Shown here piece after piece: positions 11,081-50,760 of a stretch of DNA of 64,000 nucleotides (positions within the stretch are counted from its first letter, which is position 1; the number at the start of each line of letters is the position of its first letter). The notes below the pieces were generated by a model, which saw nothing but the letters and a program-made list of their open reading frames with translations, was not told the origin of the DNA and ran no database searches. Position numbers and translations under genes: made by a program. The DNA is from Lama guanicoe (Eukaryota), in assembly GCA_013239625.1 (NCBI GenBank), contig MU056703.1, forward strand, positions 2,593,185-2,657,184, written 5' to 3'.

Positions 11081-11641
11081 AGAACGTCCTTTCCCCTCGG
11101 TGCCAACCACGGGGTCACAGGAAGCCTTGTTAGCTCTTCCTGCAGCTCAGCCTTCGCAGCATTCATGCCGCCTCCCTGAGCTGCGTCCCAACACGCCCGT
11201 GCTCTGCGGGTCACCATGGGCGCAGTGTGTGCTGCGGGAATTTGAGAGAAGACTAGGCTGCCCATGGCCATTGGGAGGTGCTTCTGCTTAGAAGAGCTGG
11301 AGAGGTGCTCTGTGCTCTCCGGTCTCAGAGTTCAGGCTGCGTCCCGGGGGCTGTGCACTTGATAATGAAATGCAGTGTGTGGCAGTGACCGTCAGGCTTA
11401 CTCTAAGTGTCACCCTCGTATCTGGATGGCAGAAAGGGTTACTCCCTTAAATACGATTTACACACTAAAATTAAAGCGGTTGGAATTATTTCCTGATGTT
11501 ACAACTGTGAGATCTGATGTTTTGCTGTAAACGCTGCTCTGTGCACTTGCATTCTCTTTTGAATCCATTTGTTTCTTCTCTCTGCCTCCCTTCCTCCCCA
11601 CTGCCTCCCTGACATTCCCCGTACTGCCTGTCTGTGCTCAG

Positions 11642-11778
11642 CCATCATGTGTTCGGTGAAGCCGGATGGGATTCCTCAGCTGTGCCGGACGGACGAGGTC
11701 GGGGAGCTCTGCGTGTGTGCAGTTGCTACGGGCACATCCTATTATGGCCTCTCGGGGATGACCAAGAACACCTTCGAG
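11642..11778 (+). CDS. DIP2C: DIP2C coding exon (~19), AIMCSVKPDGIPQLCRTDEVGELCVCAVATGTSYYGLSGMTKNTFE
   Basis: tgctcag acceptor, gtaggt donor, 137 nt; within ORF 11569..11793. Confidence 0.96.
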
Positions 11779-37460: not shown

Positions 37461-38244
37461 CCACCATCCCGGAGCCCAGGCTCATCGGCCCCAAGACGCA
37501 CTCGTGTGTAAGGGACCGTTTGTACTCTGGGACTTCAGTTTTCCCGTGTAGCTGTGCACGTAGGAGCTCATACCTGTTTCAAGTTTCAGTGTCGCCGTTA
37601 CCTCAACTTGGGTCCTTGCTCAGCCCAGGAGCCCTCGTCCGCTCCGGGCTGCCTGACGCCCCGCCGGGCGACGGTCCCGCGTGAAGCTGGAGGCCGCGAC
37701 CTCTTCACTCTCCCTCGGTGCCGCCCAGGCGGTGCTGTGCTTCACGCACTCAGCTCCCCTCCTCTGAGTCTGGCCATTTTGCCCACTTGATGGCATTTGG
37801 TGCAGAACTGAGGTGTCCTTCATCTCAGGACAAGAAAAGAGAGCTGTCTTCAGGAGCGCCAAACACCTTAGTTCCTCGTTCCTGTGTTGAAAGCAGGGTT
37901 CTCACCGCCTCCGGCGCGTGCTCCTGTTCGTCCGTGCTCGCGGGGTGTCTGCCGCTGCTTCCGCTCTTCCCCAAACCCTGTCCTTGAGTGACGCTATCCA
38001 GGACCTTGCCTTCCTGCATCCTTCTCCTCCTCGTGCTCTTGTATTGTTTAAAACAAGTTTTTAACGGCATCCCTGACAATCCAGTGTGGGTGGGCTTGTT
38101 TACACAGATGTCCTAGAGCCTTCAGTTGATGGCATGGACACGAGAGCCCTGGGAGTGAGTATCTGAGTGGCGTTTCTGTTGCTGTGCGGGTCTGCTGGTC
38201 ACACCCCAGCGCTGGCAAGGCTGACCTGCTGTCACTGTTCCTAG

Positions 38245-38415
38245 GCCCGAGGACTGGACTTGTCCCGCGTGCGGACCTGCGTGGTGGTGGCGGAAGAGCG
38301 GCCCCGGATAGCACTCACCCAGTCCTTCTCAAAGCTGTTCAAGGACCTGGGCCTCCACCCACGGGCCGTTAGCACCTCGTTTGGCTGTCGGGTGAACCTG
38401 GCCATTTGCTTGCAG
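38245..38415 (+). CDS. DIP2C: DIP2C coding exon (~31), ARGLDLSRVRTCVVVAEERPRIALTQSFSKLFKDLGLHPRAVSTSFGCRVNLAICLQ
   Basis: ttcctag acceptor, gtgagt donor, 171 nt, ends in phase 0. Confidence 0.96.
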
Positions 38416-43219: not shown

Positions 43220-46200
43220 CTGGACTTCTAGTTTTGATTAGGATGTATAAGTCATAAGAGACTATTTTTCCAATCCAAACTATTGAAGCAATCTGGTTAA
43301 TACACAAAATCATAGTTTTTAAAATCCATCAGAAAGCTAAGATTCAAAGAAATCTCAGAGAACTAAATTCTCCTCCAGGGAAAAGCAATTGTTTTCACTC
43401 TCCAGGGGTGCAGGAACCAACCACACTTCCTGGAGAACCTGAACGGTGGTGCCCAGCTTGGTGGGGAGGGTGAGGATCCCAGGGGTCCCCGGCGCAGCCG
43501 TTCTGCGACCCACCCCTGACTCTCCACGGGCCTCCCCTGCTCTGGAGGGCAGCACCGGGAGCCAGAAGCAGGCCAGGGGAGCTGAGGGATTCTGTCGGCA
43601 GGCTGAGGAAGTGGAAGCACTTCCTCAGTGACTGGAAGGAAGCTGAGACCCCTCTCCAGGCAGCCCTGGATCGCTGGGCGCACCGTCCTCGCACTCCAGA
43701 GATGGAGGGGGACAGGAAGGCTGAGTACATCTCTCTGAGGCCCCAGGGCCTTCACCAAGGGCGGTGTCTGCCTTCCAAGGAGGTCAGGCAGCAGAACGGA
43801 GAGAAGGAGAAGCAGCCAGCCATGCAGAGAGCTGGCGGCCAGTCTGACGAGCAGAAAGGGGCTTCACACGGTTTGGAAAGCAGGTCTCCAGGCTGTGAAG
43901 CACAGAGAGGGATCCAGAGTCCTGACCGCGTCCGCAGGGACGGGAGGCCCGCGTGAGTGAAGTCCAAGTAATGTCACCACCAAGCCCAGACCAAGCTCAC
44001 CCAGAGCACAGGCTCCCTCAGACCCACACAGGGGCCTGACAGAAGGAAGGGTGCCCTTTTCCAGACGACTCTGAAGTCGTCTTTACTTCCGTCTCTACTG
44101 TGCTTTTAAATCAAACCCTAAAAGACATGCAAAGAAGAAAGAAAGGGTGATCCATGGCCATGAGAGGAGGGGTCAACAGAGTTGGTAGAAGAGACACGGG
44201 AATTGTCAGGGGCTTTAAAGTAGCGGGGATAAACACGTTAAGTGCTCTAGTTGGAAAGATGTACACCTCGCGTAGAGAGATGAGGAATACCCGAGAAAGA
44301 CAGAAACCGTAAAAAGAACCAAGTGGAAAGGCTAGAAATGAAAACCACAGTGTTAGGGATAAAAATTCTTCATGGTTTAATAGCAGATTGAATGCAAAAA
44401 GAAAAAAGATCAGTGAGTGAACTTGAAGTCCAATCAACAGAAATTACCTAAACTGAAGCACAAGAGCAAGAATGAAAATAAAATAGGCTGTCTCTGGGAT
44501 CTGTGAGACAGCATCAGTTTGCTCACGTGCATGAACAGGAGTCCCAGAAGGAGGGTGAGAGAAGATGGGGCGGAAGACACAGCAGCCAAGACTGATGAGA
44601 GAGACCAACCCACGGATTCAAGAATCTCAGTGAACTCCAGGCAGAGGAGCTAAAAACACACCAATAGACATGTCACCAAAGGCTGAGAGCCACCAAGAGG
44701 CAGTCTTAAAGCAGCTACAAATAAAGATGCATTACATACGGGGGGCAGTAATAAAAACGACGCTGAGCTGACAGCAGATGTCATGGGAGCCAGAACACAG
44801 TGGGATGGTGTGTTCAGGACACTGAAAGAACTGCTTATCAAGCAGAAATATCTTCAAAAAGGAAGACAAAACCAGGTATTTGTAGACAGAGCAAAGCTGA
44901 GAGAATTCACCGTCAGCAGACGTGCACTGTGAGGAATGATGGTGGGATGGGGCTACAGTTCGTAGGAAGAGGTGAGGAGTATAGATAAGTGAATACTTAA
45001 AAGTTTCTTTAAGGACTGTTACCTACTGAAAGCAAAAACAGTAATAGTTGAGGCGTTTATAGCGTATATAGAAGTAACATGAAATGACAACTTTAAAGAG
45101 CAGGAGGGGGAAGCAGATGGAAATACTCTGCTGTAAGATTTTCCCATTGTTCATAAAGCACAATGTTACTTAAAGGTGGAATGTGTTAAATGATGCAAAT
45201 TCTGTGTCAGCCACTAAAAAATGCACGCAAAGAAGGTTAATAGAGGAGATAAAATGTTATACTGAAAATATTCTGTTCCTGAAAAAATATGCAGAAGTGA
45301 AGAACAAAAACAAAAGGGATAAATAAAAAACAGTCAAGCATGTCATTAATTACATTAAAAGTAAATGTGCTAATAAGCACACCAGTTAAAAGGCATAGAT
45401 TGTCAGCCTGACTACAGATCAGTAGTTACCGTGCAGTCCCAGTCAGAATTACAGCAGGCTTTCCTGTAAAAGTGGGTGAGAGAATTCTGAAGTTCTTAAT
45501 GGAATTTCAAAGGAAATAGAATAACCAATTTTGAAAAAGAACGTTGAAGAACTTAGACACCTGATTTCCACACTCAGTATAAGCTCTGGTCATCGAGACA
45601 ATATGAAGAGAGACCAATACAGAAAAACAGCAAAACTGAAGGAAAAAAAGAATCCAGAAATAGACACATCATGACACCAAGTTCATTCAGTAGCTGAAGA
45701 AAAGGTTTTTTGACAAATAGTTTTGAAACAAATGAAGATTAAAGGGGAAATAAGTAACCTCAATCCCTTCCTCATTCAGTACACAAAAATTAATTCTAGA
45801 TGGACTGTAGACCTAAGTGTCTATGACAAAAATTCCAGAATAAAGCTCATAGAAAAAACTATAAGAGGAATATATGTGACCTTGGTTAGGCAAAAATCTC
45901 TTAGGATACAGAAAAGCACCATAGAAGAAAAACAAAAGTTAGACTTCGTCAAAGTTAAAATTAATTTTAATGTACCTAAGATTAATAGGAAAATTACAGA
46001 CTGGGAAAATATATTTGTCATACTATATCTGACAGAGGACTTCTATCCAGAATATATAAAGAACTACAATAGAAGGAAAACCTAATGAAAAAATATGGAC
46101 GAAAGACTTGGATGGACGTTGCACAGAAGAGACACAGACGACCAGTAAGTGCGTGAAGTGCTGCCCGGCATCGTGACTCATCAGGAAAATGGTAAGTACA

Positions 46201-47085: not shown

Positions 47086-49352
47086 AAAGAGTATTATTAA
47101 CACACACATCTGCTAGGAAGACTGACGGATGTGGCTTGGGGCCCTGTAGGCAGAAACACTGGTTGAAGTTCAGCTGCCGAAGAGGCCCATTGCTGAACCC
47201 TGTTGCCGTGCCCACTCTGAGCGTAGCTCCCCAGAGTCCAGTGCTGCAGAGCTGCCTCCTGTGGCCCGAGTTGTGGGGAACCACCTCGACTCCTCAGACA
47301 CCCAGCACGACATCAGTGCTTCGGACTTGTCTCGACATCGCACGTTTCCACTTGGCACGTGCTACTTAGGTTCAGAGAGTCAGGTGCTGACGCCCGATCG
47401 TGCTGATGCTGTGGTGGGCGAACTGCTGGGTGGAAGAGCACCACTCAGCTGAAGGGTTCAAACAAGAACTGCGCTGGGTTGTCCATGCTGTGTTCGGGAC
47501 ATGAGTCCACGTATCTACAGCTGGAGGTTAAACATAACTCGTTTGTTTACTAAGTCCTCGGTACCTAACTCTTTTATAACAGTAAGAAAAAAATGACTTT
47601 TACTGTGTGTCCATGTGCAACGTTTTTATTATACAGTTGAACTTCAAAAGTTAATCCTCTTTTCTAGTTAATATGACGTGCAGTATCAAACATGTTTGTT
47701 TTCATTTCTGATAAGCTTTGGTTGGAACAGGTGTCTTTGCTTTCCTGCTCATCGTTTCTGCAAGTACCCCGTTATCTTTAAGTTCTGGGGAGCATTATGG
47801 ATCTCCTTATTTAAAGAAATTCCAGCTTACATTCTTTGGCAAAGTGAAGATTTTATTAAATGTGTGCTCCCTGCTATGTGCCTTGAAATCTCAGATTTTT
47901 GTACCTTGGATTTTTGAAACTTGGAAACACCTTGTGCATCAGCTGTTCGCATGCCCTTACAGATGCAGCTCCTCCGTGCGTCTGCAAGATGGGAGATGCG
48001 TTCCCAATCACGTGTATTTTTTCTTGATACTGCCTTGAGTCATTATAGTAAATTTGTGAATTAAGATAATTTAGAGAGAACATGGATTAATTTTGCTCCA
48101 GTTAATATTTGGGATTCAAGGACTAGTGAGGGAAATTATTTCAATCACTGCATTCAGCTTGAAGAGGCCCAGTGAAAGTCCTGTGTGCCTCTGAGGTGCA
48201 CACACCTTTCCTGGCCCCGTTGTTCTCTTTCCTGGAGACCTGCCTCAGTTTCCCAAACCCACAGATGCCGAGAGCAGTGGCCGTGGTTAACCATGGGGAA
48301 GGGGTGTCACAGAGAGGGGGGCGAGTCGTAGCTTTCATAGTGCCTCCAAGTTGAGTGATGGTAGTTTTTCAGTCTGGCCGTGTTTATTCCCAAACTGCAG
48401 CCTTGGGAAACCAAGTTAAGACTCCTTTTTCGTTGCTGCCACTGTCATCTCTGGAGCCCACCTGGTGACTGCGATTGCAGGGTGGGGCAGCACAGGGCTG
48501 TACTCACAGGACTGTGCCCGTGCAGCGCCTCCAGCTGGTTCTAGGTTCCTAGGAGCACCTGGGAAAGATACCTAGTCACCTGGGGACAGTACACAGCATC
48601 AGAGGAGCTCACCCAGGTTGCTTTCTGGAGTCTTCCCACTGTGCCCCTGTAGACGGTTCGGCAGGTAGAGGTGGGCACCAGGACGGTGGGAGAGGAGAGG
48701 AGAGGAGAGAGGGTCTTGGGGACAGAGTGGTGGGGTGACACTCCCTCTGCACACTGCTGAGCTGGGCCGTCTCTGAGCGGGGTTTGGATCGTGCTTCACA
48801 CAGCCTTTGGCCTCTTTTCTTGTCCTAGTCTTGTGGACGAGTAGGGCTAGACACCCCGATTTCAGGTCCACAAGTTTCCAGGCTCCCCTTCGTTACTGTG
48901 CTGAGAAACTTGAAACCTTCTCAATGAGGACCACTCAGCAGATTTAGCCAATGAAAGTCATGCTCACCACTTTCTCAGAAAAGAAACTAAAGGAAAGTAC
49001 CACAGGACCAGCCCCACTGACCGTGTGTGTCAGAGACATTCGCTCAGGTCCACGTGTCCCTGCCTGGCCATCCGTTTCTCTCTCCTGTCGCTCTGTGGAC
49101 ATGTGGACATCTTTTCAGATTTTTTTTAGCCTTTAGTGGTACAGTGATTGATTTTAACAATTCCCATATTTGGCATTGTTTTTGATCTTCTTTTTACTTT
49201 GTTCCCTGCTTTTTGCATTCTCCCCCCCACCCCCCTTCTTCACCCCACTTTGATTGTCGGGTGTTTGTTTGTGTGTCTGTGTGTCCCTGATTTTCCGTGT
49301 TCGTCGGTCTGGTGTTCTCTCCCTTCCCGGCTCCCTCCTCCTGCCGCTGTAG

Positions 49353-49382
49353 CCCCACCGGCTGTGGACGCTGGCTGAGCAG
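49353..49382 (+). CDS. DIP2C: Putative alternatively spliced DIP2C 30-nt microexon, PHRLWTLAEQ
   Basis: Long pyrimidine-rich tract then ctgtag acceptor, CAG|gtaggg donor, 30 nt with no stop. Phase 0-0 matches flanking exons 38245-38415 and 50699-50760. No AG from 49145 to 49350. Confidence 0.8.
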
Positions 49383-50698
49383 GTAGGGATTTCCGCTCAC
49401 CCACACCGGTGCCTGCCCACCACCGGCTCCGACCCTGGCCCCGGGAGTGAGTGCAGAGACTGGCTGGGCTTCCCCACCTGCAGCCAGGAGGGCTGACGGC
49501 CAGCGTGATGTCCACTCTCAGACTTCGTCTGACGCCTCGCATCTGTGGCAAACGCTGTGCTTCTGTTGTACACGATCAGTGGTGTCTTGGCCAGTTTGCA
49601 GTCATCTCTGTTTCACTCCATTTTCCACTTCTAGTGACCCGCTTCCTGGTTTGTGTTTTTGATTGACCTCTTTGGGTATGCACTTTGCATCACTCCGCAC
49701 TCAGAGCTGGTCTGCAGCACAGCTCCACTGACAGGCACAGGTCAGCGAGGACGCTGTGGCCTCACTGCAGGGCAGCCCCGTCCTCCAGGCTGACTGCATG
49801 TGCTTTCTCGGGGGGGGACTCCTGGGTGGCCTAGTATGTTGTGATGAAGGCGTCTTTATTTTTATGTTTTTCTTATATTTAAACATGCCTTTGGTACAAG
49901 ATTAAGATTCTCTCCTGAGGAACTTTAGTCCTTCAAATAAACTCTCAGTCTCTGTTATTTTTTGGCACAGTTTTGTTAGCTTCCATCTTTTTCTACTCAA
50001 GGTTTGGCGTTACCTGCCCAAGAAATTCACATAGAATTTTGGTTGGTAATGTAGCTTTAAAGCCATGGTTCTTCGTGAATAGAGATCACTGTCCAGAAGT
50101 CAGCCTGTCCTGTGTTTTGAAGGGGTTTGCAGCGCCAAGGTGAGGTTCTGGACTCCTTGTTAAATAAGTAGGGGCTCGGACCACAGGGCGCGGCCGAGGC
50201 AGCCAGTGGTGAACACAGTCTCCCTGACCTGCCCCCTCGCTGGAGGCAAGCTGAGGCACACGGAGAACCGGGAGGACCGGCAGTCCTTTCTCTCCCTCCT
50301 TATCCTGTCGGCTCACGTCACGAGTTCTGCTCTAACGTGTCGAGGTCTAAGCGTTCACCTTTCAGGACGCGTGTGGTGAAGCACCTCTCAGCCGTGAGGC
50401 CTCGTGTCCTCAGCGGCCTGCTTTTGCCAGACGCTGCCTCAGCAGTGCCAGCCTTTTAATAGGCAAGATGCCCCTTTCCGATTTTCGTAGACGTGACTGA
50501 GAGGCAAGCTGTGGGAAAGGCCAGCATTAATAACACGCTCCTGTCAGAGTTAGGTTATCCGTTGAGAGGTGCAGTTTTAGTGCTTTGGGTTTGGTTCAGT
50601 TTCAGACGTTACCAGAGAAATGCTCCCCAGCCAGGGGAACGTGCAGACACAGCTCTCAGGGCAAAAGTGGGTTAACCGCACCGTGTCCTTGCTTGCAG

Positions 50699-50760
50699 GG
50701 GACCTCGGGGCCCGACCCGACCACCGTCTACGTGGACATGCGCGCTCTGAGACACGACAG
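50699..50760 (+). CDS. DIP2C: DIP2C coding exon (~32), GTSGPDPTTVYVDMRALRHDR
   Basis: cttgcag acceptor, gtactg donor, 62 nt; within ORF 50585..51040. Confidence 0.96.

What the first reader, a model, noticed from the sequence alone, without database searches (positions are those of the whole stretch)
49145..49352. 206-nt AG-exclusion zone with a candidate distal branch point upstream of the microexon
Seen: no AG dinucleotide from 49145 to 49350. The zone opens with TTTTAAC (49152-49158, candidate branch A ~49157, about 195 nt upstream of the acceptor), followed by long U/C-rich and UG-rich tracts with UCUU motifs. Established: long AG-exclusion zones mark distal branch points and are associated with regulated exons, and UCUU tracts bind PTBP1. 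Inference: microexon inclusion is gated by a distal branch point under PTBP repression. This independently supports the exon being real.
Basis: partly seen in the sequence, partly recalled or inferred. Interest (0 to 1): 0.7.

Follow-up and report, generated by a model that had tools for sequence, protein, structure and literature searches.

The report
AG-free zone before DIP2C mini-exon
A 206-base stretch with no AG sits in front of a 30-base optional exon of the DIP2C gene and likely reflects splicing from an unusually distant branch point, an uncommon but well-described arrangement.

Summary
There is no AG in 49145-49350 (206 nt), the longest such run in the window; 0 of 300 simulated windows reach it. 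The window is DIP2C. The 30-nt exon 49353-49382 (PHRLWTLAEQ) is real and optional: annotated vertebrate isoforms from fish to primates carry it or skip it, and a 30-nt human DIP2C exon is listed in two published tables. No adenosine lies between -62 and -3, so any A branch point is at least 63 nt from the acceptor. Published mapping of comparable zones favours a site near the 5' edge, so -196/-168 is likely, but nothing was mapped here. The PTBP part is unsupported: UCUU is not enriched (3 seen, 3.1 expected) and no knockdown or CLIP evidence was found. The human exon is absent from one SRRM4-target list and one brain-specific list. Conservation of the AG-free zone could not be tested. Verdict: a new member of the known long-AG-exclusion-zone, distant-branch-point exon class; low interest.

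The parts
38245..38415 (+). Upstream DIP2C exon (57 codons, ends ...AICLQ, phase 0)
   Evidence: 98-100% identical to annotated DIP2C proteins; AG/GT ends read
49117..49144 (+). Four AGs in 28 nt that bound the zone on the 5' side
   Evidence: AG at 49117, 49128, 49135, 49143
49145..49350 (+). 206-nt AG exclusion zone (90 T, 63 C, 36 G, 17 A)
49152..49158 (+). Candidate far-distal branch point TTTTAAC, A at 49157 (-196)
   Evidence: 6.13 bits on the Gooding 2006 matrix, rank 4; most Watson-Crick pairs to the recalled U2 hexamer, 4 of 6; unmapped
49180..49186 (+). Candidate distal branch point TTTTGAT, A at 49185 (-168), directly abutting the distal pyrimidine tract
   Evidence: 6.16 bits; next 20 nt are 90% pyrimidine; unmapped
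49186..49241 (+). Distal polypyrimidine tract (U-rich, then C-rich) holding the three UCUU motifs
   Evidence: pyrimidine runs 49186-95, 49218-28, 49230-41; UCUU at 49186, 49189, 49237
49248..49254 (+). Candidate branch point CTTTGAT, A at 49253 (-100)
   Evidence: 6.29 bits; unmapped
49262..49285 (+). UG-rich linker
   Evidence: Tandem Repeats Finder period 8, score 34; UGUGU 4 seen vs 1.7 expected, P=0.08
49285..49291 (+). Best-scoring and nearest possible A branch point CCCTGAT, A at 49290 (-63)
   Evidence: 7.35 bits, the only CURAY in the zone; unmapped
49291..49350 (+). 60-nt A-free stretch with the proximal pyrimidine tract (49315-49342) and a UGC at -11
   Evidence: second-longest A-free run in the window; UGC position
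49353..49382 (+). 30-nt in-frame cassette exon, PHRLWTLAEQ; acceptor TAG, donor CAG|GTAGGG
49394..49423 (+). Four YCAY and three YGCY motifs just downstream of the donor (NOVA- or MBNL-type words; assignment recalled)
   Evidence: 0.9% of 50-nt windows hold 4 or more YCAY; 11 such clusters in the window; noticed after the fact
50699..50760 (+). Downstream DIP2C exon (GTSGPDPTTVYVDMRALRHDR, phase 0 start)
   Evidence: covered by RNA contigs

Best explanation
The zone is the extended 3' splice-site region of an optional 30-nt DIP2C exon, whose upstream intron likely branches far from the acceptor, near the 5' edge of the zone (-196 and/or -168), with -63 as a possible second site. Shown: no AG for 206 nt; no A nearer than -63; two pyrimidine tracts; the exon is in frame, conserved across vertebrates and optional. 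Inferred from published cases: U2 binds a distal site beside the U-rich tract, and after branching the spliceosome takes the first AG downstream, so any AG in the zone would be captured or would spoil the exon and is selected against. Inferred: the long spacer lowers default inclusion and carries binding sites for regulators. Which regulator acts (PTBP, NOVA, MBNL, SRRM3/4) is undetermined. Inclusion adds ten residues to the second, likely non-catalytic, FAAL-like domain of DIP2C.
For: Zone length and nulls. Exon real and optional: 35 of 120 hits (nearly all fish) carry a PHRLG-type insert at this junction, 78 skip it, 7 are otherwise modelled. Of 35 listed cluster members, mostly tetrapods, 13 carry it (5 identical PHRLWTLAEQ, in rodents and primates), 17 skip it and 5 do not span the site. 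A human 30-nt DIP2C exon is listed as HsaEX0019765 with mean PSI 18.6 in normal breast and 10.6 in tumours, and among 310 novel micro-exons; orthology is inferred from gene, length and peptide, not from aligned DNA. Branch position: in the 8 published exons with zones of 185 nt or more (5 by primer extension, PMC2991248 Table 1; 3 by mutagenesis, PMC1431707) a branch point lies -5 to 30 nt from the 5' edge; ours would be 10 nt (-196) or 38 nt (-168). In two of those cases a high-scoring nearer site (CCUUGAC at -51, CCCUGAU at -217) could be mutated without effect. Three of the four sites scoring 6 bits or more lie at -100 or beyond; 0.7 such sites are expected per 206 nt window-wide.
Against: No branch point was mapped. 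The top motif is -63 (7.35 bits), not -196 (6.13). -196 is 28 nt from the first run of 9 or more pyrimidines. The published cases were hand-picked. I left four shorter zones (101-173 nt) out of the count, and one of them, MBNL1 exon 8, branches at -51/-64 despite a strong -138 site. Gooding et al. estimate that only one-half to one-fifth of zones of 100 nt or more mark distant branch points. Another exon of this gene has a 128-nt zone with a perfect CCCTGAC at -30, so a long zone can coexist with a near site. AG absence is partly a by-product of A scarcity. In three minigenes, deleting distal branch points had only modest effects (PMC5378181).
Confidence: 0.6

Rival explanations
1. The main branch point is CCCTGAT at -63. 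The upstream 140 nt are an A-poor, pyrimidine-rich regulatory tract that lacks AG mostly because it lacks A.
For: Highest matrix score and the only CURAY, followed by 60 A-free bases with a pyrimidine tract and UGC at -11. Neural microexons have predicted branch points at a median of 45 nt (PMC12871342). MBNL1 exon 8 precedent. Letter shuffles give zero AG in 3% of trials.
Against: All five primer-extension-mapped zones over 200 nt have a site near the 5' edge. Other pyrimidine-rich windows keep 4-11 AG. A TTAAC 12 nt after the last AG fits the published pattern.
Confidence: 0.28
2. One reading: a single branch point at -196 and repression by PTBP1 through UCUU tracts.
For: Position precedent. 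The few distant-branch-point exons analysed by 2006 were all PTB-regulated. 129 of 141 micro-exons that changed on Ptbp1 knockdown went up (PMC4317164). The zone is 75% pyrimidine.
Against: UCUU 3 vs 3.07 expected and YUCY 14 vs 11.6 (P=0.17). No PTBP data for this exon turned up. Multiple branch points are the rule in mapped long zones. A YCAY/YGCY cluster downstream suggests activators.
Confidence: 0.2
3. An SRRM3/4-dependent neural microexon with the usual shifted branch point and tract.
For: UGC at -11, small frame-preserving exon, conserved to fish. Such microexons have tract and branch point set further from the AG.
Against: 30 nt exceeds the 27-nt definition. DIP2C is absent from 314 exons induced by SRRM4 in HEK293 (the six-cell-line table was too large to read) and from 145 brain-specific micro-exons. 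Mean PSI is 18.6 in normal breast. UGC within 25 nt occurs at 16 of the other 22 acceptors too.
Confidence: 0.12
4. A chance low-complexity stretch with no role in splicing.
For: A-poor composition explains much of the AG absence.
Against: 0 of 300 simulated windows reach 206 nt. The most pyrimidine-rich and longest AG-free stretch in 64 kb ends exactly at the acceptor of a conserved optional exon.
Confidence: 0.04

Closest known systems
Long-AGEZ, distant-branch-point exons (Gooding et al. 2006, PMC1431707; Corvelo et al. 2010, PMC2991248): PTB exon 11, GABBR1 exon 23, MBNL1 exon 9, CLK1/CLK3 exon 4, HTR4 exons 3-5
   Same: Zone over 150 nt (165 of 67,334 human introns); candidate branch point just inside the 5' edge; several further candidates; pyrimidine tracts through the zone; cassette exon. 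CLK3 exon 4 has a 207-nt zone and branches at -196.
   Different: The branch point is unmapped here. The exon (30 nt) is shorter than the nine in Corvelo's table (36-569 nt). The last 62 nt before the AG have no A at all, so there is no conventional fallback site.
Human DIP2C exon HsaEX0019765 (hg38 chr10:311537-311566; hg19 chr10:357476-357506)
   Same: Same gene and length; primates carry the identical ten-residue peptide. Orthology is inferred.
   Different: I could not obtain the human intron, so whether it shares the zone is untested. No main-text mention of this exon or its branch point was found.
SRRM3/4-dependent neural microexons (bioRxiv 10.1101/2024.09.17.613571; PMC12871342)
   Same: Small, frame-preserving, conserved exon; extended branch-point-to-acceptor spacer; UGC near the AG.
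   Different: 30 nt; the spacer is much longer than their median of 45 nt; absent from the SRRM4-target and brain-specific lists checked.

Membership tests
Long-AGEZ distant-branch-point exons | AG exclusion zone of 150 nt or more before a used acceptor | tested here: met
   206 nt; acceptor use inferred from annotated orthologous isoforms
Long-AGEZ distant-branch-point exons | Branch-point motif near the 5' edge of the zone | tested here: met
   TTTTAAC at -196, 6.13 bits, 10 nt inside by the papers' measure
Long-AGEZ distant-branch-point exons | Polypyrimidine tract adjacent to that motif | tested here: inconclusive
   -196: 60% pyrimidine in the next 20 nt, first long run 28 nt away; -168: 90%, abutting
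Long-AGEZ distant-branch-point exons | No conventional A branch point within 40 nt | tested here: met
   nearest A is at -63; at the 22 other acceptors it is at -15 to -31
Long-AGEZ distant-branch-point exons | Branching shown by experiment at 100 nt or more | not testable with these tools
   the lariat supplements held were cut or only partly searched; no rows found
Long-AGEZ distant-branch-point exons | Zone conserved in orthologous introns | tested here: inconclusive
   two near-identical DNA runs show no difference in the zone; five RNA runs with a small share of its words laid nothing there
Long-AGEZ distant-branch-point exons | Exon alternatively spliced | tested here: met
   isoforms with and without; human PSI 11-19 in breast
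PTBP-repressed exons | PTBP binding upstream and more inclusion on knockdown | not testable with these tools
   motifs present but not enriched; no data for this exon found
SRRM3/4 neural microexons | Length 3-27 nt | tested here: not met
   30 nt; it does meet the 51-nt micro-exon definition of PMC4317164
SRRM3/4 neural microexons | UGC between tract and AG | tested here: met
   UGC at -11, but also within 25 nt at 16 of 22 other acceptors
SRRM3/4 neural microexons | Induced by SRRM4 and brain-specific | tested here: not met
   absent from 314 SRRM4-induced exons in HEK293 and from 145 brain-specific micro-exons; absence from thresholded lists only

The most novel reading that the evidence does not exclude
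The intron holds two stacked branch-point/pyrimidine-tract modules (-196/-168 and -63) before one acceptor with no proximal fallback. Tissue-specific choice between them, rather than simple repression, would set inclusion of a vertebrate-conserved ten-residue insert in the non-catalytic FAAL-like domain of DIP2C. That would give a clean case of branch-point switching as the regulated step, and a handle on what that domain does.
Probability: 0.12. Interest if true: 0.5.

Novelty: new member of a known kind. Interest (0 to 1): 0.2.

Why it matters
It adds one more example to a class described in 2006. Two modest uses follow. If the human intron has the same layout, AG-creating or branch-point variants up to about 200 nt from this exon could change DIP2C splicing and would be missed by splice-site-proximal screens. 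The 62-nt A-free end also makes it a tidy minigene for asking how one of several distant branch points is chosen. No new mechanism is shown.

Tried and rejected
RNA evidence for inclusion in this species: one raw-read run laid nothing. Two RNA contig sets from a related organism (about 93-95% alike in the intron) gave a 72-nt piece covering 50689-50760. It starts where the upstream exon's end and the intron's end stop sharing ten letters, which fits the skipped form; contigs drop minor forms, so this says nothing against inclusion. Conservation of the zone: five RNA runs laid nothing on 48900-49700, and two DNA runs were near-identical and may be close to the source; uninformative. Human lariat tables: no rows in the held parts of PMC5959240 (files cut at 4 million characters; my control terms also found nothing, so that search is void) or PMC5378181 (16 of 27 files not searched). 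Regulator tables: no row for this exon in PMC4387716 or PMC12982621; the Dip2c row in PMC5989265 is a different, longer exon, and 3 of 15 files were not searched. One recalled paper id was not held. RNA structure: z = -1.13, not unusual. Rfam: nothing near a gathering score. A second copy elsewhere in the genome: none found. Tandem repeat as the cause: only a weak 24-nt UG array. Earlier findings of the scan: none for this place; four word matches in other genomes did not bear on it. Supplements that I could not see (bioRxiv files, oversized tables) may hold PSI or branch-point rows for this exon.

Full report
Observation. The sequence has no AG between 49145 and 49350, and the acceptor AG is at 49351-49352. 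At 206 nt this is the longest AG-free run on either strand, N runs aside; the next is 128 nt. Markov simulations of the window (orders 1 and 5, 150 each) never exceeded 162 nt. The zone is also the most pyrimidine-rich 206-nt stretch of the window and holds only 17 A, so composition explains part of it. Shuffles of its own letters lack AG 3.3% of the time, while the next 14 most pyrimidine-rich windows hold 4-11 AG.

Gene and exon. The window encodes part of DIP2C on the + strand. The 30-nt segment 49353-49382 reads PHRLWTLAEQ in frame between the exons 38245-38415 and 50699-50760. Of 120 hits, nearly all fish, 35 carry a PHRLG-type insert at this junction, 78 skip it and 7 are otherwise modelled. 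Of 35 listed cluster members, 13 carry it, five of them letter for letter (rodents, primates), 17 skip it and 5 do not span the site. These are database annotations, many of them predicted. A 30-nt human DIP2C exon appears as HsaEX0019765 in a supplement of PMC7935315, with mean PSI 18.6 in normal breast and 10.6 in tumours. It also appears among 310 novel micro-exons in a supplement of PMC4317164. I infer orthology from gene, length and peptide; I did not align human DNA. The exon is therefore real, optional and already catalogued.

Anatomy of the zone. No A lies between -62 and -3; at the other 22 acceptors of the gene the nearest A at or beyond -15 is at -15 to -31. I scored every A with the weight matrix of Gooding et al. 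2006; my version reproduces their 7.52 bits for the ideal site. Four sites reach 6 bits: -63 CCCTGAT 7.35, -100 CTTTGAT 6.29, -168 TTTTGAT 6.16 and -196 TTTTAAC 6.13. There are two pyrimidine blocks, 49186-49241 and 49315-49342, with a UG-rich linker between them. Site -168 abuts the first block. Site -196 pairs best with the recalled U2 hexamer but is 28 nt from the first long pyrimidine run. No unusual fold or Rfam family was found.

Which branch point. Motif score alone favours -63. Published mapping favours the 5' edge. In Corvelo et al. 2010 all five zones over 200 nt have a mapped site -5 to 24 nt from the edge, including CLK3 exon 4 (zone 207, branch -196), and three of the five also use nearer sites. 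In Gooding et al. three more zones of 185-381 nt depend on sites 13-30 nt from the edge, and nearer high-scoring sites could be mutated without effect. Against this, those cases were hand-picked, and I left four shorter zones out of the count. One of them, MBNL1 exon 8, branches at -51/-64 despite a strong distal motif. Only one-half to one-fifth of zones of 100 nt or more are estimated to mark distant branch points, and deleting distal sites had modest effects in three minigenes. The exon at 11642 in this gene has a 128-nt zone with a perfect site at -30. I put far-distal branching, alone or shared, at about 0.6 and -63 as the main site at about 0.3. No lariat row for this intron was found, but the tables held were cut or only partly searched.

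Regulator. Nothing here shows PTBP control. UCUU (3 vs 3.07) and YUCY (14 vs 11.6) are at the level expected from composition. General precedent makes PTBP plausible. SRRM4 looks less likely: the exon is 30 nt, absent from 314 exons induced in HEK293 and absent from 145 brain-specific micro-exons, although it has a UGC at -11. These are absences from thresholded lists. A cluster of four YCAY and three YGCY follows the donor; 0.9% of 50-nt windows have as many YCAY. I noticed this after the fact, so it is a lead only.

Conservation of the zone. This could not be tested. No eukaryotic relatives are held. Two near-identical DNA runs show no change in the zone, and five RNA runs laid nothing on it.

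Comparison with what is known. It works like, and on sequence criteria belongs to, the long-AG-exclusion-zone class of Gooding et al., to which 165 of 67,334 human introns belong at 150 nt or more. The defining experiment, branch-point mapping, is missing. It fails the size and list-based tests for SRRM3/4 microexons. Main-text searches for DIP2C with microexon, for the event id, and for DIP2C with splicing and exon skipping found no paper whose listing concerns this exon. Broader searches listed at most one paper that names DIP2C, on an unrelated subject. The library lacks most subscription papers.

Papers seen. PMC1431707: passages, section 7, matrix table. PMC2991248: passages, section 11. 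PMC5378181: passages, partial supplement search. PMC12871342: abstract, section 20. bioRxiv 10.1101/2024.09.17.613571: passages only. PMC7935315 and PMC4317164: passages and supplement rows. PMC5959240, PMC4387716, PMC12982621, PMC5989265: supplement searches only. PMC9342972: passages.

Verdict. A real feature in front of a real, known optional exon. The distant-branch-point reading is likely but unproven, and the PTBP step is unsupported. New member of a known kind; interest 0.2.

Noticed in passing
window 11512-11639: A 128-nt AG-free zone precedes the DIP2C exon at 11642, with a perfect CCCTGAC at -30 (7.84 bits) and a weaker CURAY at -125.
   Followed up: partly
window 49394-49423 and 49602-49628: Two of the window's 11 clusters of four YCAY within 30 nt lie within 250 nt downstream of the mini-exon; the first overlaps three YGCY. 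Possible NOVA or MBNL enhancers; motif assignments recalled, untested.
   Followed up: partly
window 49353-49382: The peptide is PHRLGKLADQ or PHRLGKLAEQ in most fish, amphibian, reptile and bird entries, PHRLWKLAEQ in horse and seal, and PHRLWTLAEQ here and in rodents and primates; some fish have a 9-residue form.
   Followed up: partly
junction 38415/50699: The insert falls just after the strand that aligns with the YGxAE motif region of bacterial fatty acyl-AMP ligases, in DIP2's second FAAL-like domain, which PMC9342972 suggests is non-catalytic. That the following loop is the FAAL-specific insertion is recalled, not checked.
   Followed up: partly
window 38406-38415 and 50689-50698: The upstream exon's last ten bases equal the last ten bases of the intron before the downstream exon, so skip-junction reads look unspliced for ten letters.
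   Followed up: yes
window 49095-49144: A U-rich stretch with four AGs just 5' of the zone could act as cryptic acceptors.
   Followed up: no
window 44001-46000: A-rich segment (GC 0.395, AT skew +0.295) inside the upstream intron, possibly a retroelement fragment.
   Followed up: no
window 37905-37972: Longest A-free run in the window (68 nt), about 270 nt upstream of the exon at 38245.
   Followed up: no
between window 5216 and 9480: A fish isoform (P0034) has a 17-residue insert at this junction, absent from 6 tetrapod proteins checked; not sought in the window.
   Followed up: no
window 11644-11778: This 45-residue exon is 100% identical only to three entries named from camelids among the 120 hits listed, which suggests the group that the genome belongs to.
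   Followed up: no
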